Source: Dehalococcoidia bacterium (GTDB lineage: Bacteria > Chloroflexota > Dehalococcoidia > Lucifugimonadales > JAAXIE01). Taken from it: 32,000 bases of DNA. The translations under genes and the position numbers were made by a program. Below the pieces are notes generated by a model. The model was not told the origin of the DNA and made no database searches. It saw only the letters and a program-made list of their open reading frames with translations. Shown here piece by piece: positions 7,070 through 31,000 of the stretch. The stretch's first letter is position 1, and every line of letters starts with the position of its first letter. Location: assembly GCA_965263155.1 (NCBI GenBank), contig OZ253586.1:2499171-2531170 (forward strand), read 5' to 3'.

Positions 7070-7223
7070 GTCGCCAGCGAGTGTACTTGGCACAACCCCT
7101 GCCCGCAACGAGAAAATGCGATGTCTGCGGACGTACCCCGGACCCGCTTAGTCTTCCAAGTCAGTCAATTGCCGCGTGGTCGGCTTGAAGCCCCAGCCCA
7201 CATTTGCTAAAGTAAGGCTCCAC

Positions 7224-7299
7224 GGGGCTGTAGCTCAGCTGGGAGAGCGCTTCAATGGCATTGAAGAGGTAGGGGGTTCGAGTCCCCCCAGCTCCACCA
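7224..7299 (+). tRNA. tRNA-Ala (anticodon GGC), CCA encoded
   Basis: GGGGCTGTAGCTCAGCTGGGAGAGCGCTTCAATGGCATTGAAGAGGTAGGGGGTTCGAGTCCCCCCAGCTCCACCA. The cloverleaf folds by eye: acceptor GGGGCTG/CAGCTCC with the G3:U70 alanine identity pair, anticodon loop AT-GGC-AT, T arm GGGGG-TTCGAGT-CCCCC. Confidence 0.95.
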
Positions 7300-7786
7300 A
7301 ACTGGGGCGAGTTGCGGTCGTCATCTGATATACTTCCGACTAGTAGGAGTATACCCAACGCCATGCCGGTATGCTCCGCACCAACTCAGTTGGAGTGTAG
7401 CGACATGTCGCTTCAGGCCATCTACTAGTAATTCTGATCGTCCTTCTTGGCTCGCTGGTTGCCGCCCGCCAGGGAACCTCGACGCAGGAGGCCCGAGATG
7501 GTCACGACGTGTTTCACTGAATGATTAGCGCCTTCCAGGACCCTGATATAATGCAGCAGGTGCACGATATACACCACGAAGTTCATTCCATTTTCGAGGC
7601 CGAAATCGCCAAGCTCAGCGGTCTCCAGAAGGTTTCTTCAACTGGAGGGAAAATGGACAGCGAGTTTGATGGCCAGGACCGGATGGCCCTGCGGGCTGCG
7701 TGGAAGTTGCAAGGGATACTGGCTCTTCGCCACCGCGGACGGGTACATCATCTCCATCCAATAATCACTATTTTGAAAGGGGGTTC

Positions 7787-8815
7787 GTGCAACTCCGCAA
7801 ACTATCCAAGGGGCTGAAGGCCTCGTACTATGGGTCGGAGGTCGCCAGTCGCGTGCAACACTTCAATGGATGGAGCGACAGAGCGCTTGCACGGGATGTC
7901 GGCGCGACAGGCTACGACCATACCGAAACCGTCAAGGAATACTACGACCTTTGCGGCGAGTTCATGTTGCTCTCCTGGGGCGAATCCCTGCACTTCGCGC
8001 CGCTATCGCCGCAGGAGAGCCTGGAGGACTCCAAGACCCGGCATCAGCGACTGATGATCGCCAAGCTGGAGTTGCGCGAGGGGATGAGGGTGGTCGATAT
8101 TGGTTGCGGGATCGGCGGGCCGATGCGGCGTGTCGTCCGGGACGCCGGTGTGAGGGTCGTAGGGGTCAACAGCAACGAAATCCAGATCGGCCATGCGAAA
8201 TCGTTGAACGCCGAGGCGGGGCTCGACCACATGGTCGGCTACGTTGCGTGCAGCTTCATGAACATGAGCGCCATCGCGGACGACACATTCGACCGCGGTT
8301 ACGCGATCGAATCGACGTGTCATGCGCCGGACAAGGCGGGCGCGTTCGCCGAGATTTACCGTGTGCTGAAACCCGGAGCCCTTTTCTGGGGGCAGGAAAT
8401 GTGCATGACGGACAAGTTCGATCCCAGTGACAATCGGCACCGGGCCATGAAGCAGCAACTGATGCGGGGCATCGCGCTCCAGGATATCGCAACGATGGGA
8501 GAGGTGAACCGGGCGGTCGAAACGGCGGGGTTTCAGATCATCGAGGGAATGGACCGGGCGGTGGAGGAGAACGGTCCGACCACGCCATGGTATCGGGCCA
8601 TAGAGACCCAGCAAAGAAGGCTGGCCACTGGCCTTCCGTTGGGCCGCAAGGCGCTCTTCGGGGCATCCAGGCTGGCCGAGGTGTTTGGGGTGTTCCCGAA
8701 GGGCTCGACGGGCGTCGTCAGGCTGCTGGACTTGGCGGCCAACGCCATTGTGGCGGGCGGCAGGGCCGGGATCTTCACGCCGTTGTACTGTTTCCTGGCT
8801 CGTAAACCTCTTTGA
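7787..8815 (+). CDS. Sterol 24-C-methyltransferase (ERG6/SMT1) family SAM-dependent methyltransferase
   Basis: Collinear by eye with yeast ERG6 over the whole length. Matches are WGESLHFAP (region I), VVDIGCGIGGP (SAM motif I, 8090-8122), YAIESTCHAP vs YAIEATCHAP (8300-8329), EIYRVLKPG, MTDKFDPSDNRHR vs MTDKYDENNPEHR, PWY, and the C-terminal AIVAGGRAGIFTPLYCFLARKP vs GLVAGGKSKLFTPMMLFVARKP. The ORF opens at 7700; I prefer the GTG at 7787, which lies 3 nt after GAAAGGGGG. Confidence 0.85.
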   Translation: MQLRKLSKGLKASYYGSEVASRVQHFNGWSDRALARDVGATGYDHTETVKEYYDLCGEFMLLSWGESLHFAPLSPQESLEDSKTRHQRLMIAKLELREGMRVVDIGCGIGGPMRRVVRDAGVRVVGVNSNEIQIGHAKSLNAEAGLDHMVGYVACSFMNMSAIADDTFDRGYAIESTCHAPDKAGAFAEIYRVLKPGALFWGQEMCMTDKFDPSDNRHRAMKQQLMRGIALQDIATMGEVNRAVETAGFQIIEGMDRAVEENGPTTPWYRAIETQQRRLATGLPLGRKALFGASRLAEVFGVFPKGSTGVVRLLDLAANAIVAGGRAGIFTPLYCFLARKPL

Positions 8816-8838
8816 CAAGCCTCGGAGGAGAGGTTTTT
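8804..8838 (+). terminator. Weak candidate intrinsic terminator after the methyltransferase
   Basis: AAACCTCT (8804-8811) pairs with AGAGGTTT (8829-8836) and is followed by T-rich TTTTCC. The loop is 17 nt, which is long for a terminator. Confidence 0.25.
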
Positions 8839-8990
8839 CCGATGACCAGACCTGTCTTCTCGGATGCTCAGTATCGATGATTGTGGCCGGAGTGCATCTC
8901 CCTGTTGGTGAAAGGAAGTGCGCCCGGCCATGCTTGGGCGAGCACTTGCGCCTATTTAGGGTGGCGTGCCCATTTCCTTACATATTTGGA

Positions 8991-9123
8991 CCTCCCACCG
9001 AAAAGTTCGCAGTACAGTATGCTCCGGCCCACCTGAGAAGGCTCGAACCGATCATTCGGGCCGACTTGGGACACCCAACCACATCTCGAAGATGGTACCA
9101 CCTACCATCCACTTAGGCCCACC
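8991..9123. repeat. Intergenic repeat family, copy A (longest)
   Basis: CCTCCCACCGAAAAGTTCGCAGT...GGCCCACC...ACACCCAACCACATCTCGAAGATGGT...TTAGGCCCACC. The 5' part recurs at 9439 and the 3' part at 12614. Confidence 0.8.
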
Positions 9124-9226
9124 ATGACGTAGTGAACTCCGCCGCTCAAAGCGACCTCAGCGTTGTCCAGAGCGCCATTCTCTACAAAGACGTGTGTTAC
9201 ACCATCCCCGACGTAGGGAACACAGC

Positions 9227-9382
9227 ATGCGCGCAAATAAGAAGATGGGTTTAGGCATCGCTCTCGAAGTTGGAGCAGGCGTAGGCATAGGCGCGGCACT
9301 CGGCAACATCGGCGTCGGTTTGGCAATAGGATTTGCCGTGGGCGTAGCGCTCGGTGCAAGTTGGGGCCGACATCGTCGCTAA
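9227..9382 (+). CDS. Small glycine-zipper membrane protein (51 aa)
   Basis: MRANKKMGLGIALEVGAGVGIGAALGNIGVGLAIGFAVGVALGASWGRHRR has a basic N-terminus, GxxxG-rich hydrophobic segments and a basic tail. The ORF is trimmed to the ATG at 9227. The Shine-Dalgarno sequence is weak. Confidence 0.5.
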   Translation: MRANKKMGLGIALEVGAGVGIGAALGNIGVGLAIGFAVGVALGASWGRHRR

Positions 9383-9438: not shown

Positions 9439-9514
9439 CCTCCCACCGAAAAGTTCGCAGTTCGGTACGCCCTGGCCCACCAAAAAAGAACTCTGGACAG
9501 GGCCGGACACCCAA
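9439..9514. repeat. Intergenic repeat family, copy B
   Basis: The first 43 nt match copy A at 38 positions by my count (CCTCCCACCGAAAAGTTCGCAGT identical). A looser match follows through GGGCCG..ACACCCAA. Confidence 0.8.
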
Positions 9515-18607: not shown

Positions 18608-20044
18608 CTAAGTTGAAGGAGGCAGGACCCAAGGTTTGGAGCGGATGCCTCTGTCTATCGTGACAAGGTTGACTGTCGGGTCGATGAGGCGGGTTGCCGG
18701 GCGGCCGTTGAAGGCGACGTGGACATCGGCACGGACTTCGACGTCGCGATGGCCACGGTTCGTGAGGTCATCTCGGATGATGTGGGCCGTTGCCAGCACC
18801 AAGTCGGGCTGGTATGCCATGCGCTCGACCTGTGTTGGCGTCAGGTATTCTTCCGGGTAGATGAGGCGCTCCCCGTCGGTGGCAGAGCTTTTCATGCGGA
18901 AACGCACGAGTCCTGTCTTCTCCGTGACCAGCACCCTCCACGAGAAACGATAGCCCTCTTCCGTCCATTGCACGTCTCCAGCGTAAGCCAAGTGTCGCAG
19001 GGGCACGAGCACTTGTACTACGAAGAACAAGGCAGCGAGCACGAGCGCAACCCGGACAGGCCACGCTGGAGGACATCCGTGAGACCCCGCTCGTCCTAAG
19101 AGAGGGGGCTCGGGTGGCAGGTGATGCGGTCCACGCAACCGGCTAGCTACACGAGCGGGCCAGTCAGAATCAAAGAAGATGAGGGCCGCCCCAATCATTA
19201 TCCAGGGGAACATGCCAATGGCAGGGAACAGCAGTGCCGTTGCCATGTGGAACAGCACCAGCACGCCATAGGCATAGGGGCGTGACCTGCGCCACAACAG
19301 CCACCCCACGATTGTCAGGTCGAAGAGGGCCCCAGCCCAACTCATCGCGTATGCAACCCACTGCTCGCGGACAAACGCGCCGACCAGATGTACGTCAGCG
19401 CTGTTATATAACCATATAGTCAGAGGCTGGGCGTCAAACAACCAATCGGGGTTCAACTTGGCAAGGCCAGCAAAGACGTACATCAAGCCCAATTGCGCCT
19501 GCAGCACCCACAATGTTGCCCGGGGAACCACCGGAGGGTGCACGTCAGCTGGGGTCTTACGCGAATCCAACGAGGCCACTCGCGCCATGGGCAGGAACGC
19601 CATGATGAGGCTGAGCAGACTCACCAAGTAGTAGTGATTGAGGTAGGTCGTTTGGTCAATCAGCTCCAAGTAGGTGAACAGCAGGAAGAAGGCAATGATA
19701 GACCGCCGGTAGCGGTACCCCAGCGCTACACCAAGGCTGGCCAGCCCAAGGAGGGCGAAATGGACGTACATCCCCCAAACGGGCCAAGGCTGCACCCATC
19801 CGAACCCGGCATAGCTGAAATGGTAGGTGGGCTCGAGGTACACCTCTGAGATCCAACCGTTGGCCACGAACCGCACCACAGCGATAAAGCCAAGCAGGCC
19901 GAAGATGACGCGGAAAGCGGCCAGCGAGGCTGGCGACACCGGCTGGCGTCCAGCTTGGATAAGCCGGTCGAGTGGGCTAGAGACTGCTGTTGGGGCACGT
20001 TGTGCAGAGGCTATTCGTGCAGCGGAAAGGGACGGCACTACCAT
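18608..20044 (-). CDS. Vitamin K-dependent gamma-glutamyl carboxylase (VKGC)-like protein with N-terminal HTTM domain
   Basis: SLAAFRVIFGLLGFIAVVRF...YRRSIIAFFLLFTYLELIDQTTYLNHYYLVSLLSLIMAFLP is the HTTM domain. VFAGLAKLNPDW aligns with human GGCX FFAGLKKLDADW, so the catalytic-base Lys is conserved (codon 19457-19459). The C-terminal GYRFSWRVLVTEKTG...VHVAFNGRP...LIDPTVNL parallels the GGCX lumenal region GYSWDMMVHS...WVSINDR...IFDPRVDI. Confidence 0.85.
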   Translation of the reverse strand: MVVPSLSAARIASAQRAPTAVSSPLDRLIQAGRQPVSPASLAAFRVIFGLLGFIAVVRFVANGWISEVYLEPTYHFSYAGFGWVQPWPVWGMYVHFALLGLASLGVALGYRYRRSIIAFFLLFTYLELIDQTTYLNHYYLVSLLSLIMAFLPMARVASLDSRKTPADVHPPVVPRATLWVLQAQLGLMYVFAGLAKLNPDWLFDAQPLTIWLYNSADVHLVGAFVREQWVAYAMSWAGALFDLTIVGWLLWRRSRPYAYGVLVLFHMATALLFPAIGMFPWIMIGAALIFFDSDWPARVASRLRGPHHLPPEPPLLGRAGSHGCPPAWPVRVALVLAALFFVVQVLVPLRHLAYAGDVQWTEEGYRFSWRVLVTEKTGLVRFRMKSSATDGERLIYPEEYLTPTQVERMAYQPDLVLATAHIIRDDLTNRGHRDVEVRADVHVAFNGRPATRLIDPTVNLVTIDRGIRSKPWVLPPST

Positions 20045-20053
20045 GGAAGCCAG

Positions 20054-21139
20054 CTAACGCAGGCTGTCGCCGTCAGTGTCGGTGAACCCCACCGACACGC
20101 CGAGAAGGCTCACCAACTCCGTCGCCATGGTGCGCTGCAACTCCGCGAGCCTGTCGTAGGCCTCGATCACCTGACTTGGCCTCTCAGCTATGGCAACACG
20201 TAGCTGCCCTTCTACCGCGTCGAGGGCCCCTATGGCGTCGGCGAGTTGCTCCCGCAGGCGCTGGTCGGTATCTTCCGACAGCGGGCGTACCAAGGCCGAG
20301 ATGCCCAAACTGTCCGAGCCAGCTCCTTCGTAGATGCGCTGCACGCCCTGCAGTTCGTTGCGCAGGTCTGCCAAGCCGTTGTCGGCAGCGGTGCCGGGGA
20401 TGGCCGATGGGTCGGCCCCGCCATCCCGCAGCCCCAACGCCGACGCCAAACGCATGTCGACGATATCCCGAATCAGGAAGACCTGAGTCCGCACCACCTC
20501 GGCCACTCCTTCGCTGGCTAGTAGCGCTACCTCCGACCGACCGGTCAGGTAGTCACGGTACGGTGGCCCTCCGTCACCCTCGACCCACGCCGATAGAATC
20601 GCGTCGGCCTCCTGACTTGCGACGGATGTGAGCGCGGACAAGAAGGCGCATCTTGGCGAGGGACCCTGAAGAGAAGCAGTCGCTTCTTTGTCGAATAAGA
20701 CATACTCCATGGCCCCGAACCCTCTCTGATTGGAGGCAAGCGCCTCGCGGATGTCAGTGGCCGTTGGCGCACGTCCTTGGGCCAACAGTCCCTCAATGCC
20801 GTCAATGTCAGTAGGCGACCAGTCCAGCAGGCTGCGGGAACGCCTCTCCATCACCGGCCCAAACCACATCGCCCCCGATGCCATCCAAGATGCGCGGGCG
20901 GCGTGCCACGCTTGTCGGGCCGCCTCCACGGATACGTCGTCAGGATTCTGGCATACGGACTGTGTGGCCTCATCCAGCCGGGCTATATCTTCAGCAACGG
21001 CTTGGAAGGCGGGGACGGCGACCTCGTCGGCGAGGCTGATCAAGACGTCGGCGTCCGAAGGGCCTCTCGGTCCACAAGCAGCAGACAGCAGCGCCAACGC
21101 AGCCAGAATCGGGGCCAGCGACGCTAGGACGGGCCTCAT
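20054..21139 (-). CDS. Imelysin-like lipoprotein (paralogue lacking the His of GxHxxE)
   Basis: Signal LALLSAAC|G. ARQAWHAARASWMASGAMWFGPV is imelysin-like. The motif position reads GFGAMEYVLFD (Gly instead of His). The ATG lies 1 nt after the upstream stop. Confidence 0.8.
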   Translation of the reverse strand: MRPVLASLAPILAALALLSAACGPRGPSDADVLISLADEVAVPAFQAVAEDIARLDEATQSVCQNPDDVSVEAARQAWHAARASWMASGAMWFGPVMERRSRSLLDWSPTDIDGIEGLLAQGRAPTATDIREALASNQRGFGAMEYVLFDKEATASLQGPSPRCAFLSALTSVASQEADAILSAWVEGDGGPPYRDYLTGRSEVALLASEGVAEVVRTQVFLIRDIVDMRLASALGLRDGGADPSAIPGTAADNGLADLRNELQGVQRIYEGAGSDSLGISALVRPLSEDTDQRLREQLADAIGALDAVEGQLRVAIAERPSQVIEAYDRLAELQRTMATELVSLLGVSVGFTDTDGDSLR

Positions 21140-21140
21140 G

Positions 21141-22559
21141 CTACAGCGACTCCAGGAATCTCAAGAGAGCCTCGCGCTTCTCGGCGGTAAGACCCATGAA
21201 GCGTTGGCGAGAGCCCTCGGCCTCGCCGCCGTGCCACAGAATGGCTTCTTCAAGGCTGCGAGCTCGTCCGTCATGCAGAAACATGGTGTGGCCGTTGACC
21301 GTTTCAACAAGGCCTATGCCCCACAGAGGCGGGGTGCGCCACTCTGTGCCCGAAGCTTGGCCGTCGGGCCGATGGTCCGCCAAGCTGGGACCCATGTCGT
21401 GCAGCAGCAGGTCGGTATAGGGGAAAATCGCCTGGTCCCTCAAGGGGGTCAGCGGGTGGGTATCTCCGGTCTCGTGCCTAGTAGTGTGGCACAGGGAGCA
21501 TTGAGACTGCACGAACAGGCGGGCGCCCTGTTGCACCGTCTTGTCTTCAGGGTCACGCATCGCCGGTACCGCCAAGGTCTGCACGTAGACGGTTACCTTG
21601 TCCAGCCTGCTGTCGGGTATTTCCGGCGCGCCCCCGTTGCGGGCTTGCCGGCACTCCTCTTGGCTGGACGGGCAATTCTCGTTCGGGAACAGGCTGGAGG
21701 TGATACCGATGTCTCCCAGAAAGGCTCCAGCCGACTGCTGCTCGACAGTAGGCTGATTTGCCTTCCACCCGAAGCGTCCGAGGGCCAACTCTCCCTTCCT
21801 GATGTCCCAGACGTAGTTGGGGCGACCGGATATACCGTCTCCGTTGGCGTCGTCGGGGTCGGCTTGGGCTAGAATGCTTGCTTCGGGAATGGCTTCCAGC
21901 AGCCCCATGCCGATGGTGGCGGGAGCGATACGCGGCGAGACCTGCACCTGCGAGTGCACCGGGCCGAAGGCTAGGTCGCCGATGCTGTAGGTAGGCTGCC
22001 TCAGGCTATATTCCGTGCCGTCGGGGTACTTGCCGGGTAATTCTTGGTAGCTGATAACAATGCGCCCTTCTACGGGCACACCCAAGACCGCGCGGTCCTG
22101 CAACTGCCCGCCGTAGCTAGGCTCGTCGATGGGGCCATCAAGCCCAGGTATGCTGAGGCGGAGAAGCAGGCCCCTTTCCGAGTCGTCTGGTCCGTCTGGT
22201 GGCTTGCCTCTGCCGTCGTGGCCGTGGCACGAGGAGCAGGATACGGCGTTGTGAGTGGGACCCAACCCGTCCCTAGCCTTGGTGCTGGCAGGGGCTGTCA
22301 CCCAGTTCTGAGTAAAGAAGCTGTCGCCTACCTCGAATACCCGGCGCAGTTCATTGTCCAAGTTACGCGCCGATAGCTCAAAGGCGTTGCCGCTTCGTGA
22401 GAAAGCCGTGGTGTCTCCCCCCAAGCGCACATCGTAGACCGTGCGCAGATCGATGTTATCGCCTCCACCGCAAGCCACGATGGCTAACAACACAACCGCT
22501 GGCAGCAGCGATGCCAGCGGTTGTGTCCATGGCCTGACCGTAAGATTGGAACGACGCAT
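21141..22559 (-). CDS. DUF1111 di-haem cytochrome c oxidoreductase/peroxidase-like lipoprotein
   Basis: Signal LLAIVAC|GGGD. FEVGDSFFTQNWVTAPASTKARDGLGPTHNAVSCSSCHGHDGRG and QSQCSLCHTTRH supply two CxxCH haem-binding sites in the DUF1111 pattern. Confidence 0.85.
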   Translation of the reverse strand: MRRSNLTVRPWTQPLASLLPAVVLLAIVACGGGDNIDLRTVYDVRLGGDTTAFSRSGNAFELSARNLDNELRRVFEVGDSFFTQNWVTAPASTKARDGLGPTHNAVSCSSCHGHDGRGKPPDGPDDSERGLLLRLSIPGLDGPIDEPSYGGQLQDRAVLGVPVEGRIVISYQELPGKYPDGTEYSLRQPTYSIGDLAFGPVHSQVQVSPRIAPATIGMGLLEAIPEASILAQADPDDANGDGISGRPNYVWDIRKGELALGRFGWKANQPTVEQQSAGAFLGDIGITSSLFPNENCPSSQEECRQARNGGAPEIPDSRLDKVTVYVQTLAVPAMRDPEDKTVQQGARLFVQSQCSLCHTTRHETGDTHPLTPLRDQAIFPYTDLLLHDMGPSLADHRPDGQASGTEWRTPPLWGIGLVETVNGHTMFLHDGRARSLEEAILWHGGEAEGSRQRFMGLTAEKREALLRFLESL

Positions 22560-22565
22560 GTAACC

Positions 22566-23732
22566 TTAGCTGACGTTTATGGTGATACCCACCTTTTGGG
22601 CCGCGACCACGATGGTATCGGTCTGGTTCTCCAGCGCAACGATTGTGTCGAGGACGGCCCGGCGTCCAGGGTCGCCATCCGCGCGCCCCTGCTTTAGCAG
22701 GTCGTCAAAGGGGGTGGGGATAGACTTGGCTAGTGACACTGAGCGGTTGATCTCGGCCTCCAACAAAGCCGCCAACTCCTCGTCCTCGGAAGCAATCAGG
22801 TCTCGTATGCCGGGGCCGGAAACATCGCCGTAGTCGCCCGAATAAACCCTCTTCACTCCTAGTGCGTTGGCAATGATATCAGCGTTGGTGTTGTCGGAAA
22901 AGCAGGAGTGCTCGTCTTCTTGCGACCGTTCCTCGTAGGCGACGGTCATACGCTCACCAGCCAACTCACCTCGGCTCATCTCGCCGATGCCGGTAATTAT
23001 GTCGGTGATGGCGTCATCCGAATCCTTGCCTACGAATTGGGAGCGGTAGTTGCTCTGGCCGGGGGCCCAAGCTTCCACCATATCTCGCAGGTGCCCGATC
23101 AGGACGTCGGACGCGACGGCGAGGTAGGCGCTGCGACGGTCGGCGTTGGAGTTAGCGGTGTAGTCTTCTACAGGACGGTAACCTGGCCCGTCGGGGTTGA
23201 GGTCCTGCCCCCAGAGCAGGAATTCGATAGCATGCCATCCAGTGGAGACATTCTCCTCTGCGCCTTCTTCATTGATGGAGACCAGCAGACCGGCATCAAT
23301 GGTCGGGAACTGATCGGGATTGTTGATGACCCCAGCACTGGCGTTGCCTTCCACGTAATCGATGTAGGACTCGTCCAAGGGCCAAGCGTTGACAAGCCCT
23401 TCGGGACCGTCTTCCTCATTGTCGATAGGGCCGTTGTAGAAGCGGTATATCTCGGTGACTCCATAGTCGTCTCTAGCGTAGAGCCAAGCCCGCTTGGCGG
23501 CGTCGAGCCTCGGCTGCGACGGGGCAGCGAGGAAATTGTCTATCGCAGCGTCCAGAGTTGTGGCAGAGTTCAGGCTCCTGACGTAGGAGGCGTGGGCTCC
23601 GGCCGCGTAATTCTCGACGACTGACGCCTTGAGTTCGTCGCTTGCACCACCCCCGTCGCCTGAGCAAGCCGCCAAGGCTAGACCCGATATAAGGACCGAC
23701 AGGACCAGCAGACCAAGTGTTCTCTTCCTCAT
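22566..23732 (-). CDS. Imelysin (peptidase M75 / IrpA / EfeM-like) lipoprotein
   Basis: MRKRTLGLLVLSVLISGLALAAC|SGDGG lipoprotein signal. The GxHxxE signature TGWHAIEFLLWGQD is present. The ORF opens at 23765; I prefer the ATG at 23732 (AAGGAG lies 13 nt upstream), but either start is possible. Confidence 0.85.
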   Translation of the reverse strand: MRKRTLGLLVLSVLISGLALAACSGDGGGASDELKASVVENYAAGAHASYVRSLNSATTLDAAIDNFLAAPSQPRLDAAKRAWLYARDDYGVTEIYRFYNGPIDNEEDGPEGLVNAWPLDESYIDYVEGNASAGVINNPDQFPTIDAGLLVSINEEGAEENVSTGWHAIEFLLWGQDLNPDGPGYRPVEDYTANSNADRRSAYLAVASDVLIGHLRDMVEAWAPGQSNYRSQFVGKDSDDAITDIITGIGEMSRGELAGERMTVAYEERSQEDEHSCFSDNTNADIIANALGVKRVYSGDYGDVSGPGIRDLIASEDEELAALLEAEINRSVSLAKSIPTPFDDLLKQGRADGDPGRRAVLDTIVALENQTDTIVVAAQKVGITINVS

Positions 23733-23807
23733 ATGCTTTCCAGTGCTCCTTATCGAAATCTGCATGTCTACAGTATACTCACCATGACAGTTAGTGTACT
23801 CATAGTA

Positions 23808-24979: not shown

Positions 24980-25039
24980 CGCGACGATGCCGGTCCATCC
25001 CATCTCACCGGAACTAAGCTTGCTTGACCGATTGACCCG

Positions 25040-28000
25040 ATGACCGGGGTACTGCGCTTGCCAAGAAAGCTTTTGTCCGCAGGCATCGTTTGGGCTCTAC
25101 TCTTGCTGTTGCTGGCCTCAGGTGACGCTCGGGCCCAGAGCGTGCTCGCAGCGCCCACCATCGATTCGGTCACTGCGGGCGACAGCCTGCTTACCGTTGC
25201 TTGGACGGCCCCTACGGGCGAGTCGGGCATCATCGCCTACGACTTGCGTTACATCCAGACCTCCGCTGCGGACAAAGCCGACGACAAGTGGAGCATATCG
25301 CAGGACGTTTGGGCCACGGGTGCCGGGGATCTACAGTACCGCATCCTCCCATTGGAAAACGTTGGCTACGATGTGCAGGTGCGAGCCATAAGGGGAAGCA
25401 CCGACGGCATGTGGTCGCCTACCTTCATTGGCACGCCTACTGATCATGGAGACAGCCGTGGAGGAGCCACAGAGCTGGCCCTGAACGCGTCAGTCGTTGG
25501 CTACATCGACTCAACCAGCGATGACGACTACTTCAGCATCACGCTGTCGGAGGAGTCCGGCGTCTTCATCTATACCACCAGCTACATCACCGGGTTTCTT
25601 GCGACGACCGGGGAACTCCAGAACAGCGTCGGTACGACGATCAAGTCCGACGACAACGACTCCCTGTTCAGGCAGCACGGGCAGCAACTCTTTCTATGGG
25701 ACACGCTATCCGCTGGGACCTACTTCGTCAAAGTCGAAGCCTCTGAGACGGGGTATTACACCCTGCACACGCAGACCGTCCCCGATGGGAGCAGTAAGGA
25801 TGAGGCGGTCGATGTGAGCCTCAACGGCTTTGCCAACGGGATCTTGGACCCAGCGGCAAGCGATAAGGACTGGTTTAAGGTCGAGATCTCCCAGACCACG
25901 GACTTGATGCTCCGGGTGACCCGCGCCAATTCAGGAGTAGATACCGAAGGGACGTTATTTGACAGCGACGAAAAGGAGATCGCCGTCCACGATGACAGCT
26001 TCCTTGAAGGTGATTTGCGCTGGCAGTTCATCATCCGCGAGAAGCTGGACGCCGGGGTGTATTACCTCAAGGTCAGGAGTTCCCCCGGAGGGTCCTATCG
26101 CAGTTGTGACGAAGATGCGAAGTGCTCCGAGGAGATCTCCAAGAGCGCCGCGACTGACCCCGGACCCTACATGATGCACGCCGAGGCCGTGACGGCTCCC
26201 GGCAGTTCCACCGGCTCGGCCCGTGCCCTCACTTTAGGCCAGAACGAGGTGGCGGGCGGAAGAATAGACCGGGCCAACGATACGGACTATTTCAAGATAA
26301 CCGTGAGTGAGACTACCCATGTCCGTGTGCGGGTCGCAAGTGCGACTCTCGAGACCGACGTGGCGCTGCTAGACACCAGTCGCCGCGAGGTTGGCACGCT
26401 CCAGTCAGAAAGCGATTACGTTCCTGGGAGACTCGGAGGCCTTCTCTACGGCACCCTCAAGACGGGTACCAGCTACATCAATGTGACTGCCGAAGACCGC
26501 AAGGAGACGGGGGCGTATGCCATAGTGGTGTACGAAGACACGCTGTATGCGGGATTCTTGGACCGCTGCAGCGCCATCTCAGCCAACTACAGCGACCCCC
26601 TTTATGGGTGTCAATGGCACCTGAACAACACGGGCCAGAACAGCGGGGCTGGCGCGGGCACCGAGGGCGAGGATATCAATGTGGAGGAAGTGTGGGACGC
26701 TGGCAACCTTGGCGAGGGCATCAATGTCGCAATAGTCGACAACGGCTTGTACTACGAGCACGAGGACCTGACTGCCAATGTCAATCGCTCACGCAACTAT
26801 GACTACACTGGGGAGGGCGACGTATTCGAGCGCTACCTCACCCATGGTACCCGTATAGCCGGCATCATTGCTGCCCGTGACAACAGTATCGGCGTCCGTG
26901 GAGTGGCGCCGCGGGCCACGGTGTACGCCTACAACTGGATTCGCAATCCGACTTTCGCCAACCTCGGCGATGCGATGACCCGCAATATGTCCGACACTGG
27001 TGTGTCCAACAACAGCTGGGGTCCCCTAGCGTCTCCCAGACCGGCCCGTGTCCCCAGCCTCTGGGAGCTAGCGGTGGATGCTGGCGTCTCCAAGGGCTTT
27101 GGTGGCAAGGGGGTCTTCTACGTCTTCTCGGCGGGCAACGGGGGGCGAAGCAGTACGGGGGACTACTCGAACCTCAACGAGTACGCCAACTACTACGCCG
27201 TGACCGCGGCCTGCGCAACCGACAACTTGGGAGAGAGGGCCGCCTTTTCTGAGGAAGGTCCCAATCTTTGGGTCTGTGCTCCATCAGAGGGCGACGGGCG
27301 TCAAGGCATAACCACCACCCAGAACTACAACCGCTATGACGGGTCTACCGGGGGCACCTCATCGGCCGCTGCCATCGTGTCGGGTGTGGCTGCCTTGGTG
27401 CGCAAGGCTAATCCCAACCTTACTTGGCGGGACGTGAAGCTGGTCCTGGCAGGTTCCGCCCGCAAAAACGACTCCACTAATTCCGGCTGGGAGACGGGTG
27501 CCACTAAGTACGACTCTACCACCGACACTGACACCTATAACTACAACCACGAATACGGCTTTGGTGTAGTCTACGCCAAGGCGGCGGTGGACTTGGCCGA
27601 AGGCTGGACCTTGCTGCCTCCCATGAGGGAGGTCACCGGAGGTACCGTCGACGACCTTGACCTGAGCATTCCCAACACCAACTCGGCCGTCCCTAGCGCT
27701 GTGACCGTCGGGGCTGGAGTCGACTTCATTGAGTTCGTGGAGGTCAACGGTGTTTTCGACCACCTGTCCTTCCGAGACCTGAGGGTGGAGTTGGTGTCAC
27801 CTTCCAACAAGACATCCGTGCTGAGTGTACCCTTCACCTCTGACGAGAATTATCCCTTGACCACCAGTTTCCGTTTCGGCTCCGCACGTCATTTGGGAGA
27901 GAGCGCGACAGGCACTTGGACTCTACGCCTTACCGATACAGAATCTGGCAGTGAAGGCTCCCTCCTCTCCTGGAGCCTTACCGTTTATGGCCATTCAGAC

Positions 28001-31000
28001 CCCTTGGCAGCCCCGACCGCCACCTCGGTCACTCCCGGCAGTAGTTCCCTCACTGTCGCTTGGGACGTCCCAGACGGAGCAACGGGCATCACCGCCTATG
28101 ACGTGCGCCACATCGCCAGCGATGCCACAGACAAGGCCGATGACCAGTGGACCGTGATCTATGACGCATGGGCATCCGGGTCCACCAGCCTGCAGTACAC
28201 CATCACCAGCCTCACTGATGGGACTGGCTACGACGTACAGGTGCGGGCGGTGAAGGCGGGCGTGGATGGTGATTGGTCGGATACGGTCGTGGGTACATCG
28301 GGAACCTCGGCGGCCACGGTACCGACCATCGGCTCTGTGCGCCCCGACGACAAGGCCATCCTCGTGTCCTGGTCTGCTCCCACCAGTACCACGTACACCG
28401 TCACGGCCTACGATGTACGCTATATCCGCAACGATGCCACCAGCAGGACGGATAGCGATTGGAAGGTGGAGGACGACGCGTGGACCACCGAAGACGGTGA
28501 CCTGTGGTACGCCATCACTGAATTGGACAACGGGGTGATGTATGACGTGCAGGTGCGGGCCGTCACAACCAGTGACGGAGATTGGTCACCGCCTTTTAGC
28601 ACGAGCCCCTCTGACTATGGCGGAAGCTTGGACACGGCAACAACTCTTGTGCTGGAAACTACTTCTTCAGGGCGGATTGCCCCACTTGGCCACAACCGTT
28701 ACTGGGGTGAGCTGGAAGATGGAGGCGACACCGACTATTTCAAGTTCGAGCTCACTTCCACACAGGTTGGAACCGGTGCCGGGTTCTGGCTGTACACCAC
28801 AGGCGACTTGGACACTGTGGGCAACCTGCTCGATAGCAACGGTCTGCTTATCGAGGCCAATGACGATGGCAGGGTGTTGCCGAACCCAAGGGACTTCTTC
28901 ATGTGGCGCACCATGACAGCAGGTACGTACTACCTCAAGGTCAGCGGCTACGAAGGCGCCCAAGGGCCCTACACTCTCAGGCTGCGAACATTCACCGACA
29001 CTAGTAGTCGGAGCAATGCGGTCGAACTACCCTTGGACGGCTCAGCAAGAGGCATGCTGGACCCTGAGGGTGACGAGGACTACTTCAAGCTAGTAGTGCC
29101 CTCGGACGACACCGAGGTGGTTCTTCGTAGCAGCGGCTTTTTCGATTCGGTAGGCGAGTTGCAGAACAACTCCGGCCGCTCCTTGGAGGTGAACGACGAT
29201 GGTTACCTTACAGGTGGTCTGGTTCGCCAGTTTCTAATACGCACGGAACTCGACACCGGCACCTACTACCTCAAAGTCAGAGGTTTCGACAGCATCATCG
29301 ACGAGAACATCGGCCCCTTCAGCGTCTACGCCACAACGGTGACGAAGCCCGGCAGCGACACCGCTAATGCCCAGGCCCTGACCCTCGGCCGTCCCGCTGG
29401 AGGCAGCATAGACCCAGCGGGAGACGTGCACTACTTCAGCATTACCCTCTCGGATCAAACCTATGTGTACATACGGGCGGTAAGCGAAGACCTTGACGTG
29501 GACGGCGCACTGCTGGACAGCAGCAACAACGCCGTCACCCCGGCCTCGGACCAAGACGGCAGTGGTAACGTAGGCTTCACCATCCGACACCGCCTCGATG
29601 CTGGCACCTACTACATCAAGGTCACTGCCGATAGTGGCGCCGACACCGGGAGTTACACCATCATGGTTATCGAAGAGACCGTCTTCAGTAGGCTGGTCGA
29701 CGAATGCACCGAGATCGACAGAAATGCCGGCATCAATGACCCTCTATACGGCTGCCAGTGGCACCTCAACAACGATGGGCAGTTCCGCGGCGGGGCTAGG
29801 CAGGACATTAACGTAGAGGACGCGTGGTCCAGCAGCTACAACGGGACAGGAATCAACGTAGCTGTGGTGGACGATGGGATGCACTACGCCCACGAGGACC
29901 TGATGCCCAACGCAAACACAGCTCTGAACCACGACTACACTGGCAACAGTGAGATATACGATCCCCTCGAAACCCACGGCACGGCCGTGGCCGGCATCAT
30001 TGCGGCCCGGGACAACGACAAAGGAATGCGTGGGGTAGCCCCTAGGGCCACCATCTACGGCTACAACCTTCTCATTAGCAACGAGGACAAGGACGAAGGT
30101 GACGCCATGTCGCGGAACGCGAGTGTAACCGCGATCTCCAACAACAGTTGGGGCCCTGGGGACTCCGGAGCGCCAGAAGCCACGAACACTTTCTGGACTG
30201 CAGGGGTCCAAACAGGGATCACCGATGGCTTCGGGGGGAAAGGCACTTTCTATGTCTGGGCAGCTGGCAACGGAGGCCGCTGGGGCGACTATTCCGGCCT
30301 AGACGAATACGCCAACTACTACGCCGTGACAGCGGCTTGCGCCGTCAACCACCTCGATGTCCGGAGCAGCTACTCCGAGCCGGGCTCCAACCTGTGGGTT
30401 TGCGCCCCCTCAAATAACGGGGGTCTATCTAGTCTGCCCGGCATTGCCACTACGGACAACGGGAACCGTTACAGGGATGACTTCGGCGGCACCAGCGCCG
30501 CTGCTCCCATCGTTTCAGGCGTAGCTGCCTTGGTGCGTGACGCCAACGAAAACCTGACATGGCGTGATGTGAAGCTGATCCTAGCTGCGTCCGCCCGCAA
30601 GAACGACCCAACTGATTCTGGATGGGAGGAAGGCGCCCCGAAGTATGGCTCCACCACGGACCGCTACAACTTCAACCACGAGTACGGCTTTGGCATGGTG
30701 GACGCCAAAGCAGCAGTAGACTTGTCAAACGGCTGGGCCAATGTCCCAACCTTTCGGAATATGAGCGCCGAGTCCGGCAGAATTAACCTCACCATCCCTG
30801 ACGCCACATCTACCCTGCCGGGCGCTAGGGTGACCAGCACACTGACGCTCCAGCCATTCGTGGGGTTCGTCGAGTACATCGAAGTGAAGGCCCACTTTGC
30901 CCACACCTCTTTCCGGGACCTGGACGTGGAACTGGTTTCCCCCACGGGCGCAGTCTCCAAGCTGGTCCCCCACTACGAAGCCCCACCCGAAGGCCGACGG

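What the first reader, a model, noticed from the sequence alone, without database searches (positions are those of the whole stretch)
7787..8815. Bacterial homologue of eukaryotic sterol 24-C-methyltransferase (ERG6/SMT1), isolated and next to a tRNA gene
The protein is collinear with yeast ERG6 through both the SAM-binding core and the family-specific C-terminal domain. Diagnostic matches are YAIESTCHAP, EIYRVLKPG, MTDKFDPSDNRHR, PWY and AGGRAGIFTPLYCFLARKP. Sterol side-chain methylation is classically a eukaryotic trait, and only a few bacterial SMTs have been reported, mostly from uncultured lineages. Such genes matter for interpreting sterane biomarkers. Two details are odd. First, no sterol-synthesis gene (squalene epoxidase, oxidosqualene cyclase, demethylases) is anywhere in the window. 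Second, the aromatic sterol-binding region I reads FMLLSWGESLHF rather than FYEYGWG(E/S)SFHF. The Tyr-Glu-Tyr residues implicated in sterol binding and deprotonation are therefore replaced, so the substrate or product may differ.
Basis: partly seen in the sequence, partly recalled or inferred. Interest (0 to 1): 0.75.

Follow-up and report, generated by a model that had tools for sequence, protein, structure and literature searches.

The report
Divergent sterol-methyltransferase-like gene on mobile cassette
The gene is a real relative of the enzyme that methylates sterol side chains, but it belongs to a large, untested branch found in bacteria living in marine sponges, has a rebuilt substrate pocket, and here sits as a stray, recently transferred copy.

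Summary
Window 7787-8815 (+) encodes an intact 342-aa protein with a class I SAM-methyltransferase core and a Sterol_MT_C domain scoring above Pfam's cut-off. It is 35% identical to yeast ERG6, and tRNA-Ala lies 487 nt upstream.

It is not a rarity. It belongs to a tight clade (bootstrap 100/100) found in at least 283 species-level genomes, nearly all Dehalococcoidia/Chloroflexota MAGs, many from sponges.

The clade has a remodelled sterol-binding Region I. The consensus is EFMVFGWGESLHF against the canonical DFYEYGWGxSFHF. M81, L89, I249 and A250 are invariant or nearly so. The SAM-binding and catalytic residues are kept.

In about two thirds of loci the gene lies in a conserved cluster:
- an MMPL/sterol-sensing RND transporter
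- the SMT
- a GPP34::P450 fusion
- a KshA-like Rieske oxygenase
- an FAD oxidoreductase

In one Binatia genome this module is fused to a complete sterol pathway.

The window copy is a dispersed one. It lies on a ~1.7-kb segment, 92-96% identical in nucleotides to copies in unrelated contexts. It shows relaxed constraint (dN/dS 0.3-0.57 against ~0.16).

The most likely function is SAM-dependent C-methylation of a sterol side-chain olefin at a non-canonical step. The substrate is untested.

The parts
7224..7299 (+). tRNA-Ala (anticodon GGC). Its 3' end (..CTCCACCA) is the left junction of the shared segment.
   Evidence: ARAGORN. In L003 the same tRNA precedes the segment. In L002 and L036 only a ..CCACCA end precedes it.
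7300..7786 (+). Conserved non-coding leader of the segment. No conserved ORF and no Rfam match. An SD-like AAAGGGGG lies just before the start codon.
   Evidence: 92-93% nucleotide identity to L002/L003/L036 while the flanks are unrelated. A 1-nt indel breaks the 98-aa + strand ORF in L002/L003. Rfam scan negative. ORF list.
7787..8815 (+). CDS of the SMT-like SAM-dependent C-methyltransferase (342 aa, GTG start, TGA stop).
   Evidence: Homologues start with ATG at the same position.
7961..7996 (+). Region I (residues 59-70, FMLLSWGESLHF). This is the divergent version of the sterol-binding motif FYEYGWGSSFHF.
   Evidence: Alignment to ERG6 and to 120 family members.
8090..8122 (+). Region II (residues 102-112, VVDIGCGIGGP). 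The SAM-binding motif DxGxGxxGP is intact.
   Evidence: D125, G127, G129 and P133 are invariant in the family; G132 is kept in 119/121.
8300..8329 (+). Region III (residues 172-181, YAIESTCHAP), containing the equivalent of essential E195.
8468..8476 (+). Residues 228-230 (G-I-A), equivalent to yeast 248-250 (G-D-G). This is the second wall of the modelled side-chain pocket, changed to aliphatic residues.
   Evidence: I249 and A250 are invariant in 121/121 family sequences. Position 249 lies within 5 A of docked sterol in most published models.
8639..8809 (+). Sterol_MT_C domain (residues 285-341).
   Evidence: Pfam PF08498, 55.6 bits, cut-off 21.7.
8816..9037 (+). 3' part of the shared segment. 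It has a hairpin followed by a T-run straight after the stop codon, then the REP-like repeat CCCACCGAAAAGTTCGCAGT... (8994-9037), where similarity to the other genomes ends.
9442..9481 (+). Second copy of the REP-like repeat, beyond a 62-aa glycine-rich ORF (9194-9382). Inverted partner arms lie at 9113-9142 and 9197-9226.
   Evidence: The pattern occurs twice against 0 expected in shuffles.

Best explanation
The gene encodes an intact, probably active member of a sponge-symbiont-specific, divergent branch of the sterol methyltransferase (ERG6/SMT) family.

Proposed mechanism (inferred from family chemistry, not shown):
- SAM binds in the conserved Rossmann-type site.
- Its methyl group is transferred as an electrophile onto an isolated C=C of a sterol or sterol-like triterpenoid side chain.
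- The carbocation is quenched by deprotonation, with H69 (=H90) and E175 (=E195) retained.

Both walls of the side-chain pocket have been rebuilt with aliphatic residues: Y81M, E82V/L, Y83F/L, F89L and D/G249I, G250A. I therefore expect a substrate or regiochemistry other than the canonical first C-24 methylation of a delta-24 sterol. One example would be an already alkylated side chain or a differently placed double bond.

In most genomes the enzyme works within a conserved module of MMPL/sterol-sensing RND transporter, SMT, GPP34::P450, KshA-like Rieske oxygenase and FAD oxidoreductase, sometimes with MFS and LprG-like lipid carriers. This module tailors and moves a sterol-type lipid.

The window copy is a displaced paralogue on a ~1.7-kb segment recently exchanged between distantly related Dehalococcoidia. 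It is under weaker constraint than cluster-embedded copies.
For: Shown:
- Family membership at sequence level: Sterol_MT_C above cut-off, 35% identity to ERG6, 41-42% to a rice cycloartenol C24-MT-like protein and to a sponge Acidimicrobiia 'sterol methyltransferase'.
- It keeps 22 of the 25 residues conserved in all experimentally functional SMTs, including H90, D125, G129, P133 and E195.
- Clade-wide fixed substitutions M81, L89, I249 and A250 (119-121 of 121), so the pocket change is selected, not decay.
- The clade has 100/100 NJ bootstrap. Its sisters P0122, P0124 and P0129 share the 'SLHF' form of the motif.
- Positions 81 and 249 flank the docked sterol side chain in published models.
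- Conserved neighbours occur in most loci: GPP34::P450 in 74, RND in 60 and Rieske in 60 of 112 sequences.
- Nearest solved relatives of the neighbours are CYP51, KshA and MmpL/Patched/HpnN.
- In Binatia locus L074 the same module is contiguous with a fused squalene epoxidase-oxidosqualene cyclase, SdmA/SdmB-like genes and a canonical-type SMT.
- Four Dehalococcoidia clusters carry a canonical-type SMT as well as the divergent one, which argues for non-redundant roles.
- Window copy: the ORF is intact, with dN/dS 0.30-0.57 against 0.14-0.18 for most cluster-embedded pairs (0.29 for one).
- The gene is 96% identical in nucleotides to the L001 genome's copy, and the 1.75-kb segment is 92-93% identical to L002/L003/L036. 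No flanking similarity exists.
- RNase D of the window and of the L001 genome are only 70% identical.
Against: - No biochemical data exist for any member I could identify.
- None of the 31 metagenome contigs carrying the clade is a contig tested by Brown et al.. I cannot exclude that some of their inactive proteins belong to it.
- By the published 25-residue rule, deviations at T78, G84 and F89 predict no activity on desmosterol or 24-methylenecholesterol. That could mean an inactive enzyme rather than a different substrate.
- The window has no cluster genes, so context evidence is borrowed from relatives 71-78% identical.
- Raised dN/dS and variable residues 82-84 within the window's subclade (LLS, LHY, VLG, VLS) fit relaxed constraint.
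- The structure model was too poor to inspect the pocket (pLDDT 57.7).
- I could not test whether the source genome has a cyclase.
Confidence: 0.5

Rival explanations
1. It is an ordinary sterol C-24 methyltransferase. It methylates delta-24 sterols made by the bacterium's own pathway encoded elsewhere, and the Region I changes are neutral.
For: - Full collinearity with ERG6 and retention of all residues shown to be essential in yeast: H90, D125, G129, P133, E195.
- E82 and Y83 vary among functional SMTs and 50%-identity representatives.
- Sponge Dehalococcoidia are reported to carry ERG24-CYP51-LSS clusters, with SMT genes scattered on the chromosome.
Against: - F89 and T78 are conserved in every functional SMT tested, yet they are replaced clade-wide.
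- M81, I249 and A250 are fixed on both sides of the modelled side-chain pocket.
- The clade sits on a long stem apart from canonical SMTs.
- It co-occurs with a canonical-type SMT in five loci, which makes redundancy unlikely.
Confidence: 0.2
2. It is an SMT-fold enzyme that methylates a non-sterol olefinic lipid, such as a squalene-like triterpene, polyprenyl or other membrane lipid. The lipid would be exported by the MMPL and MFS/LprG-like systems.
For: - The aromatic sterol-binding motif is replaced by aliphatic residues.
- Equally strong Pfam hit to the CMAS lipid methyltransferases.
- No cyclase lies within 10 kb in any of the Dehalococcoidia loci.
- The neighbours include mycobacterial-type lipid exporters (MMPL, LppX/LprG-like) and an FAD oxidoreductase related to LkcE and to fatty-acid isomerase.
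- From my own knowledge, Botryococcus triterpene methyltransferases show that the SMT fold can take squalene and botryococcene.
Against: - The neighbours' closest solved relatives are steroid enzymes, CYP51 and KshA.
- The transporter carries a sterol-sensing-domain signature.
- In L074 the module is embedded in a bona fide sterol pathway.
Confidence: 0.13
3. The window copy is a decaying, functionally redundant paralogue on its way to loss, carried along by a small mobile segment.
For: - dN/dS is 2-3 times that of cluster-embedded copies.
- Residues 82-84 of Region I differ even between 92-96% identical copies.
- G84, retained in every SMT tested by Brown and Welander, is S here.
- There are no partner genes nearby.
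- Related loci show cluster erosion (L005/L006, L112).
Against: - The ORF is intact in all six members of the subclade, with dN/dS well below 1.
- All SAM-binding and catalytic residues are kept.
- The start codon, SD-like motif and terminator-like hairpin are conserved.
- The segment has spread to several genomes, and twice within one contig (L002/L003), which suggests it is retained.
Confidence: 0.12

Closest known systems
Eukaryotic sterol C-24 methyltransferases (S. cerevisiae ERG6, plant SMT1/SMT2; EC 2.1.1.41)
   Same: Same two-domain architecture (class I SAM-methyltransferase core plus Sterol_MT_C). It is 35% identical to ERG6 and 41% to a rice cycloartenol C24-MT-like protein. Regions II, III and IV and the residues H90 and E195 are conserved.
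   Different: The Region I aromatic triad Y81-E82-Y83 and F89 are replaced (M-L-L...L). T78 becomes G and G84 becomes S. Positions 249-250 become I-A. The host is bacterial and no sterol pathway lies in the window.
Experimentally active bacterial SMTs from sponge symbionts and environmental MAGs (Brown et al. 2023, PMC10070321; Brown & Welander 2025 preprint)
   Same: Same habitat (Aplysina, Petrosia and Sarcotragus metagenomes). Same protein family by their own search criteria (E <= 1e-50, >= 30% identity to ERG6).
   Different: - Their active enzymes all keep GWGxxFHF and T78, and sit in SE/OSC-CYP51-ERG24-SdmAB clusters.
- This clade has L89 and S/G/N78.
- Outside Binatia locus L074, its neighbours are RND, GPP34::P450, KshA-like Rieske and an FAD oxidoreductase, with no cyclase within 10 kb.
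- None of the contigs I recovered matches a tested one.
SMT1/ERG6-annotated genes enriched in Ircinia sponge MAGs (Kelly et al. 2022, PMC9531527)
   Same: They report sterol genes, including SMT, enriched in sponge symbionts. They report ERG24-CYP51-LSS clusters in classes including Dehalococcoidia and Binatia, with SMT often scattered on the chromosome.
   Different: Their annotation is at KO level only. In the passages I searched (terms: sterol, Dehalococcoidia, methyltransferase) I saw no distinction of a divergent subfamily, its pocket signature or its own gene cluster.
GPP34_L (GPP34::cytochrome P450 fusion), a protein reported as exclusive to sponge symbionts (PMC11706023)
   Same: The same fusion protein is the commonest neighbour of this SMT clade, convergent and immediately downstream in most loci.
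   Different: That study proposes a phagocytosis-evasion role through PI4P binding. Its main text does not mention methyltransferase, sterol or lipid. The window itself lacks the fusion gene.
Botryococcus braunii triterpene methyltransferases (TMT-1/2/3), SMT-like enzymes acting on squalene and botryococcene (recalled from the literature, not tested here)
   Same: A precedent that the SMT fold with its C-terminal domain can methylate a non-sterol isoprenoid olefin.
   Different: They are eukaryotic. I made no sequence comparison here, so this is a lead only.

Membership tests
Sterol C-24 methyltransferase family (ERG6/SMT) | Sterol_MT_C C-terminal domain scoring above the Pfam gathering threshold | tested here: met
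   PF08498, 55.6 bits against 21.7, residues 285-341. A canonical-type SMT from L016 scores 85.6 bits, so this one is more divergent.
Sterol C-24 methyltransferase family (ERG6/SMT) | Class I SAM-binding motif (Region II, DxGxGxxGP) | tested here: met
   VVDIGCGIGGP at residues 102-112. D125, G127, G129 and P133 are invariant in 121 family sequences; G132 is kept in 119/121.
Sterol C-24 methyltransferase family (ERG6/SMT) | Full-length collinear similarity to ERG6 (criterion of Brown et al.: E <= 1e-50, >= 30% identity) | tested here: met
   35% identity over 307 aa, E = 5e-65.
Sterol C-24 methyltransferase family (ERG6/SMT) | Region III YAIEATCHAP with E195, and H90 (residues essential in yeast) | tested here: met
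   YAIESTCHAP and H69. Both are invariant in the family.
Sterol C-24 methyltransferase family (ERG6/SMT) | Aromatic sterol-binding Region I (F80-Y81-E82-Y83-G84-W85-G86-x-x-F89-H90-F91) | tested here: not met
   The window has F-M-L-L-S-W-G-E-S-L-H-F. Y81, E82, Y83, G84 and F89 are all replaced. Clade consensus is F-M-V-F-G-W-G-E-S-L-H-F. Nearly all other 50%-identity representatives keep the canonical motif.
Sterol C-24 methyltransferase family (ERG6/SMT) | All 25 residues conserved among experimentally functional SMTs (2025 preprint) | tested here: not met
   22 of 25 are kept. The deviations are T78G, G84S and F89L.
Sterol C-24 methyltransferase family (ERG6/SMT) | Catalysis: SAM-dependent methylation of a sterol side chain at C-24 | not testable with these tools
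   Needs an enzyme assay. No solved SMT structure exists to model against.
Sterol C-24 methyltransferase family (ERG6/SMT) | Genomic association with sterol synthesis genes (cyclase, epoxidase, demethylases) | tested here: inconclusive
   None in the 32-kb window. None within 10 kb in the Dehalococcoidia loci. Present in Binatia locus L074: SE-OSC fusion, SdmA/B-like genes and a second SMT. The rest of the source genome could not be read.
Sponge-symbiont divergent SMT clade (defined here) | Signature M81, L89, I249, A250 and placement inside the clade | tested here: met
   The window has M, L, I and A. NJ bootstrap is 100/100 for the clade and 100/100 for the window's subclade.
Sponge-symbiont divergent SMT clade (defined here) | Embedded in the cluster of RND, SMT, GPP34::P450, Rieske oxygenase and FAD oxidoreductase | tested here: not met
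   No cluster gene is in the window. 76 of 112 related sequences have at least one of RND, P450 or Rieske.
Integron gene cassette | attC site (RYYYAAC ... GTTRRRY) at the 3' end and an integron integrase nearby | tested here: not met
   The flanking palindrome reads GTTCGCAGT...ACTGCGAAC, the opposite polarity to attC. It folds convincingly only in L004 (z = -4.0). No Pfam hit among the window's large ORFs is an integrase or recombinase family.
tRNA-targeting integrative element | Integrase gene plus duplication of the tRNA 3' end at both element ends | tested here: inconclusive
   The left junction is always ..CCACCA, either tRNA-Ala or a repeat ending in GGCCCACC. No integrase was detected, and the right end is a REP-like repeat rather than a tRNA copy.

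The most novel reading that the evidence does not exclude
This clade could be the missing methyltransferase for a side-chain position other than C-24/C-28, for example the long-sought '26-SMT'. That enzyme would make aplysterol-type and 26-methylstigmastane-precursor sterols, or act on already alkylated sponge sterols. It would be encoded by bacterial symbionts and work together with the sponge-symbiont-specific GPP34::P450. If so, a sterane biomarker currently read as evidence for Neoproterozoic demosponges could have a bacterial enzymatic origin. The GPP34_L hallmark of sponge symbiosis would then be a sterol-tailoring enzyme.
Probability: 0.1. Interest if true: 0.9.

Novelty: new variant of a known kind. 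Interest (0 to 1): 0.6.

Why it matters
Side-chain-alkylated steranes (24-isopropylcholestane, 26-methylstigmastane) are used as the oldest chemical evidence for animals. The literature states that the enzymes for C-26 methylation are unknown. It is also unsettled whether the relevant methyltransferases reside in sponges or in their bacteria.

This gene points to a very large, symbiont-restricted and so far uncharacterised branch of the SMT family. Its side-chain pocket is rebuilt in a fixed way. The branch is physically linked to the GPP34::P450 fusion, itself a hallmark of sponge symbiosis.

That gives a concrete set of candidates to express and assay. It also suggests that the 'symbiosis' P450 acts on a sterol-type lipid.

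The window copy adds evidence that such genes move between symbiont lineages on a small segment.

Tried and rejected
1. **Structure route.** AlphaFold2 with a 44-sequence family alignment gave pLDDT 57.7 and pTM 0.55. That is too poor for a fold search or pocket reading, so none was run. Only proteins from the search for homologous proteins could be added, so a deeper alignment was not possible.
2. **Solved structures.** No SMT structure exists in the PDB. The best hits are generic methyltransferases such as 3bus and MitM.
3. **NCBIfam.** No curated SMT model matched; only weak hits far below cut-off appeared.
4. **Does the lineage have a cyclase?**
   - A motif scan of 111 loci found one only in L074.
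   - A search with the L074 SE-OSC fusion returned named hits from Nitrospira, Acidimicrobiia and Rhodospirillales, none from Chloroflexi.
   - No hit shared a contig with the SMT clade, but only the top 120 of 788 are visible, so this is inconclusive.
5. **Was any clade member tested by Brown et al.?** The contig names do not overlap.
6. **The 487-nt leader.** No conserved ORF, no Rfam family and no promoter-like site was found.
7. **Integron attC reading of the flanking repeat.** Rejected on polarity and on the lack of an integrase.
8. **Exact-sequence look-up of the window protein.** It is not on record.
Full report
**1. Observation**

The ORF exists as described. The longest frame runs 7700-8815 on the + strand. 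The GTG at 7787 is the real start. The three closest homologous loci have ATG at exactly that codon, and an AAAGGGGG motif precedes it. Homologues are 342-345 aa.

Pfam gives three main hits:
- Sterol_MT_C, 55.6 bits against a cut-off of 21.7, residues 285-341
- Methyltransf_11, 56.6 bits
- CMAS, 55.9 bits

BLASTP against yeast ERG6 gives 35% identity over 307 residues, E = 5e-65, collinear through both domains. Its numbering reproduces the residue list published for ERG6.

tRNA-Ala(GGC) lies at 7224-7299, 487 nt upstream. Nothing in the 32 kb encodes a sterol-pathway enzyme. The genes present are:
- a SIS-domain protein and an AXE1 esterase
- an Lhr helicase
- a luciferase-like monooxygenase and a GFO/IDH/MocA oxidoreductase
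- two solute-binding proteins
- RNase D
- an HTTM/VKGC-like protein
- imelysin-DHOR-imelysin
- a giant subtilase/FN3 protein

**2. Family placement**

The protein is unquestionably in the ERG6/SMT family. A scan of 1.84 billion representative proteins found 252 with E < 1e-30. Outside its own clade the best full-length matches are 35-42% identical. They include a sponge Acidimicrobiia protein named 'sterol methyltransferase' (42%) and a rice cycloartenol C-24-methyltransferase-like protein (41%). No SMT structure has been solved, and no NCBIfam model claims the protein.

**3. A rebuilt pocket that is fixed across a whole clade**

I aligned the window protein and 120 close homologues to ERG6. 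In yeast numbering:

| Position | ERG6 | Clade | Count |
|---|---|---|---|
| 81 | Y | M | 119/121 |
| 82 | E | V | 102/121 |
| 83 | Y | F | 115/121 |
| 89 | F | L | 121/121 |
| 249 | D | I | 121/121 |
| 250 | G | A | 121/121 |
| 78 | T | S/G/N | all |

These residues are invariant or nearly so: Y74, W85, H90, F91, D125, G127, G129, P133, G147, Q154, D189, E195, G217, G268, W286, G333, G352, F357 and P359.

The clade consensus is EFMVFGWGESLHF against the canonical DFYEYGWGxSFHF. Almost every other 50%-identity representative keeps the canonical form.

The 2025 preprint of Brown and Welander lists 25 residues conserved in all SMTs that worked in vitro. The window protein keeps 22 and deviates at T78, G84 and F89. 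In their docking models the sterol side chain lies between residues 81 and 249. Both are changed here to aliphatic residues. Because these changes are fixed across the clade while the catalytic and SAM residues are kept, they look like adaptation of the pocket, not decay.

In a neighbour-joining tree the clade is supported 100/100. The clade plus three 'SLHF'-type sisters (P0122, P0124, P0129) is also supported 100/100.

**4. Distribution**

- 283 species-level genomes of GTDB encode a relative. The best 80 are almost all Dehalococcoidia/Chloroflexota MAGs. A few are labelled Acidimicrobiia, Rhodospirillaceae or Binatia, at 71-96% identity. A Dadabacteria-labelled protein appears in the protein search.
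- Bin names such as SB06xx, COS3 and APA, and the SAR202 bin90, are sponge-microbiome bins. I recall this; it is not stated by the tool.
- All 31 hits in metagenome contigs that can be identified come from sponge metagenomes: LXNI Sarcotragus, LXNJ Petrosia, and JGIcombinedJ30088/Ga0209021 Aplysina.
- The window itself is from a Chloroflexota, probably a Dehalococcoidia. Its RNase D is 70% identical to that of the Dehalococcoidia chromosome OZ240229.1 and 57% to a protein named 'Chloroflexi bacterium'.
- Kelly et al. (2022) had already reported SMT1/ERG6 genes enriched in Ircinia MAGs. They also reported ERG24-CYP51-LSS clusters in Dehalococcoidia and Binatia, with SMT genes often scattered. 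The absence of pathway genes next to an SMT is therefore not unusual for this habitat.

**5. The clade's usual neighbourhood**

I clustered the ORFs of 80 genomic loci and found a conserved gene set.

| Gene | Size | Position and features |
|---|---|---|
| MMPL-family RND transporter | 827 aa | Directly upstream on the same strand; sterol-sensing and Patched signatures |
| SMT | 342-345 aa | The gene in question |
| GPP34::cytochrome P450 fusion | 692 aa | Convergent, immediately downstream |
| Rieske oxygenase | 350 aa | KshA_C domain |
| FAD amine-oxidase-like protein | 452 aa | |
| MFS transporter plus LppX/LprG-like lipoprotein | 487 and 255 aa | Present in many loci |

A tblastn census over 112 sequences found the P450 fusion in 74, the transporter in 60, the Rieske protein in 60 and the FAD protein in 39.

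The nearest solved relatives of the neighbours are:
- CYP51 for the P450
- 3-ketosteroid 9-alpha-hydroxylase KshA for the Rieske protein
- MmpL5, Patched, Dispatched and HpnN for the transporter
- LkcE for the FAD protein

The GPP34::P450 fusion was recently described as exclusive to sponge symbionts and given a phagocytosis-evasion hypothesis. That paper's text does not mention methyltransferase, sterol or lipid.

Two observations tie the module to sterols.
- In the Binatia locus L074 the module is contiguous with a fused squalene epoxidase-oxidosqualene cyclase (1269 aa), SdmB-like and SdmA-like genes and a canonical-type SMT.
- Four Dehalococcoidia clusters (L016, L017, L030, L067) carry a canonical-motif SMT grouping 100/100 with the Acidimicrobiia 'sterol methyltransferase', in addition to the divergent one. 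Two SMT types side by side argue for different steps.

**6. The window copy is a displaced, recently moved one**

- Nucleotide similarity to the closest genomes is confined to the gene and its immediate flanks. Window 7735-8830 is 96% identical to L001. Window 7283-9017 (7203-9017 for L003) is 92-93% identical to L002, L003 and L036. Window 7788-9033 is 88% identical to L004. No similarity exists beyond these limits, and no shared flanking gene families were found.
- L002 and L003 are two copies on one contig.
- The left junction is always ..CCACCA. In the window and L003 it is the 3' end of tRNA-Ala. In L002 it is a tRNA-like remnant. In L036 it is a repeat ending in GGCCCACC.
- The right end coincides with a REP-like repeat, CCCACCGAAAAGTTCGCAGT... 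It occurs twice in the window (8994, 9442; none expected by chance). It also flanks the gene in L002, L003, L004 and L036. It forms a convincing hairpin only in L004.
- It is not an attC site, because the polarity is wrong, and I found no integrase. The mobilisation mechanism is unknown.
- Transfer is supported by discordant divergence. The SMT of the window and of OZ240229.1 are 96% identical (dS 0.065), while their RNase D proteins are 70% identical.
- Pairwise dN/dS in the window's subclade is 0.30-0.57, against 0.14-0.18 for most pairs of cluster-embedded copies (0.29 for one pair).
- Residues 82-84 differ even among near-identical copies: LLS, LHY, VLG and VLS.
- All six ORFs are intact.
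- Related 'solo' loci show eroding clusters. L005 and L006 have fragmented RND and P450 genes. The P0001 contig (L112) has MMPL fragments downstream.

**7. How it most likely works**

*Shown:* an intact SMT-family protein with complete SAM-binding and catalytic residues and a clade-specific aliphatic pocket.

*Inferred from established SMT chemistry:* SAM donates a methyl cation to an isolated side-chain double bond, and the carbocation is then resolved by hydride shift and deprotonation.

*Inferred from context in relatives:* the substrate is a sterol-type lipid that is also oxidised by the P450 and Rieske enzymes and handled by an SSD-type transporter.

*Inferred from the pocket changes and from co-occurrence with canonical SMTs:* the step differs from the first C-24 methylation.

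I put about 0.5 on this package. The rivals are a plain C-24 SMT (0.2), a non-sterol lipid methyltransferase (0.13) and a decaying paralogue (0.12).

**8. Novelty and interest**

Bacterial SMT homologues in sponge symbionts are known, and some are biochemically proven. SMT genes in sponge Dehalococcoidia were noted at KO level.

I did not find the following described in the papers I read:
- this clade as a distinct entity
- its fixed pocket signature
- its dedicated gene cluster with the GPP34::P450 fusion
- the small mobile segment carrying the window copy

I rate it a new variant of a known kind, interest 0.6. It offers a defined candidate set for the still-unknown methyltransferases of unusual sponge sterols. 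The literature explicitly says that C-26 enzymes are undiscovered. However, the window gene itself is a stray copy under relaxed constraint, and nothing is known of its activity.

Noticed in passing
window 25028-31999 (+), runs off the window end: A single open frame of more than 2324 aa. It has two subtilase S8 domains, P-domains, a PPC domain and at least four fibronectin type III repeats, so it looks like a giant secreted protease or adhesin. It was missed by the ORF list because it has no stop codon inside the window.
   Followed up: partly
window 18608-23765 (-): A bacterial homologue of vitamin-K-dependent gamma-carboxylase (HTTM plus VKGC lumenal domain, 478 aa) lies directly next to an imelysin / di-haem oxidoreductase (DHOR) / imelysin trio. 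The pairing looks operon-like. I did not explore its role.
   Followed up: no
window 8994-9037, 9113-9142, 9197-9226, 9442-9481: A REP-like palindromic repeat (CCCACCGAAAAGTTCGCAGT... with inverted partner arms) brackets a 62-aa glycine-zipper ORF (9194-9382). It also marks the end of the SMT segment. The same repeat flanks the SMT gene in L002, L003, L004 and L036. It is not in Rfam and is not attC-like.
   Followed up: partly
L074 1938-19236 (Binatia MAG OZ242288.1): A compact sterol cluster containing: a KshA-like Rieske oxygenase, two GPP34::P450 fusions, an FAD oxidoreductase, an SdmB-like gene, an SdmA-like gene, a canonical-type SMT, the divergent SMT, and a fused squalene epoxidase-oxidosqualene cyclase (1269 aa).
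   Followed up: yes
L008 7506-17468 and about 57 other loci: A conserved cluster of MMPL/sterol-sensing RND transporter, SMT, GPP34::P450, KshA-like Rieske oxygenase and FAD oxidoreductase, sometimes with MFS and LprG-like genes. The link between the sponge-symbiosis hallmark GPP34::P450 and an SMT-like gene is not mentioned in the main text of the paper describing the fusion.
   Followed up: yes
L005 7468-13272, L006 9141-11895, L112 10158-11938: The RND transporter and GPP34::P450 genes are broken into fragments around an intact SMT gene. This suggests the cluster erodes in some lineages while the methyltransferase is kept.
   Followed up: partly
L010, L035 (Acidimicrobiia), L063 (Rhodospirillaceae), L074 (Binatia), P0070 (Dadabacteria): SMT-clade proteins 71-77% identical to the window protein occur in MAGs assigned to other phyla. 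This points to inter-phylum transfer within sponge microbiomes, or to binning errors.
   Followed up: no
window 7300-7786: The 487-nt leader between tRNA-Ala and the SMT start is as conserved (92-93%) as the coding region in L002, L003 and L036. It has no conserved ORF, no Rfam match and no sigma-70-like promoter. Its role is unexplained.
   Followed up: partly
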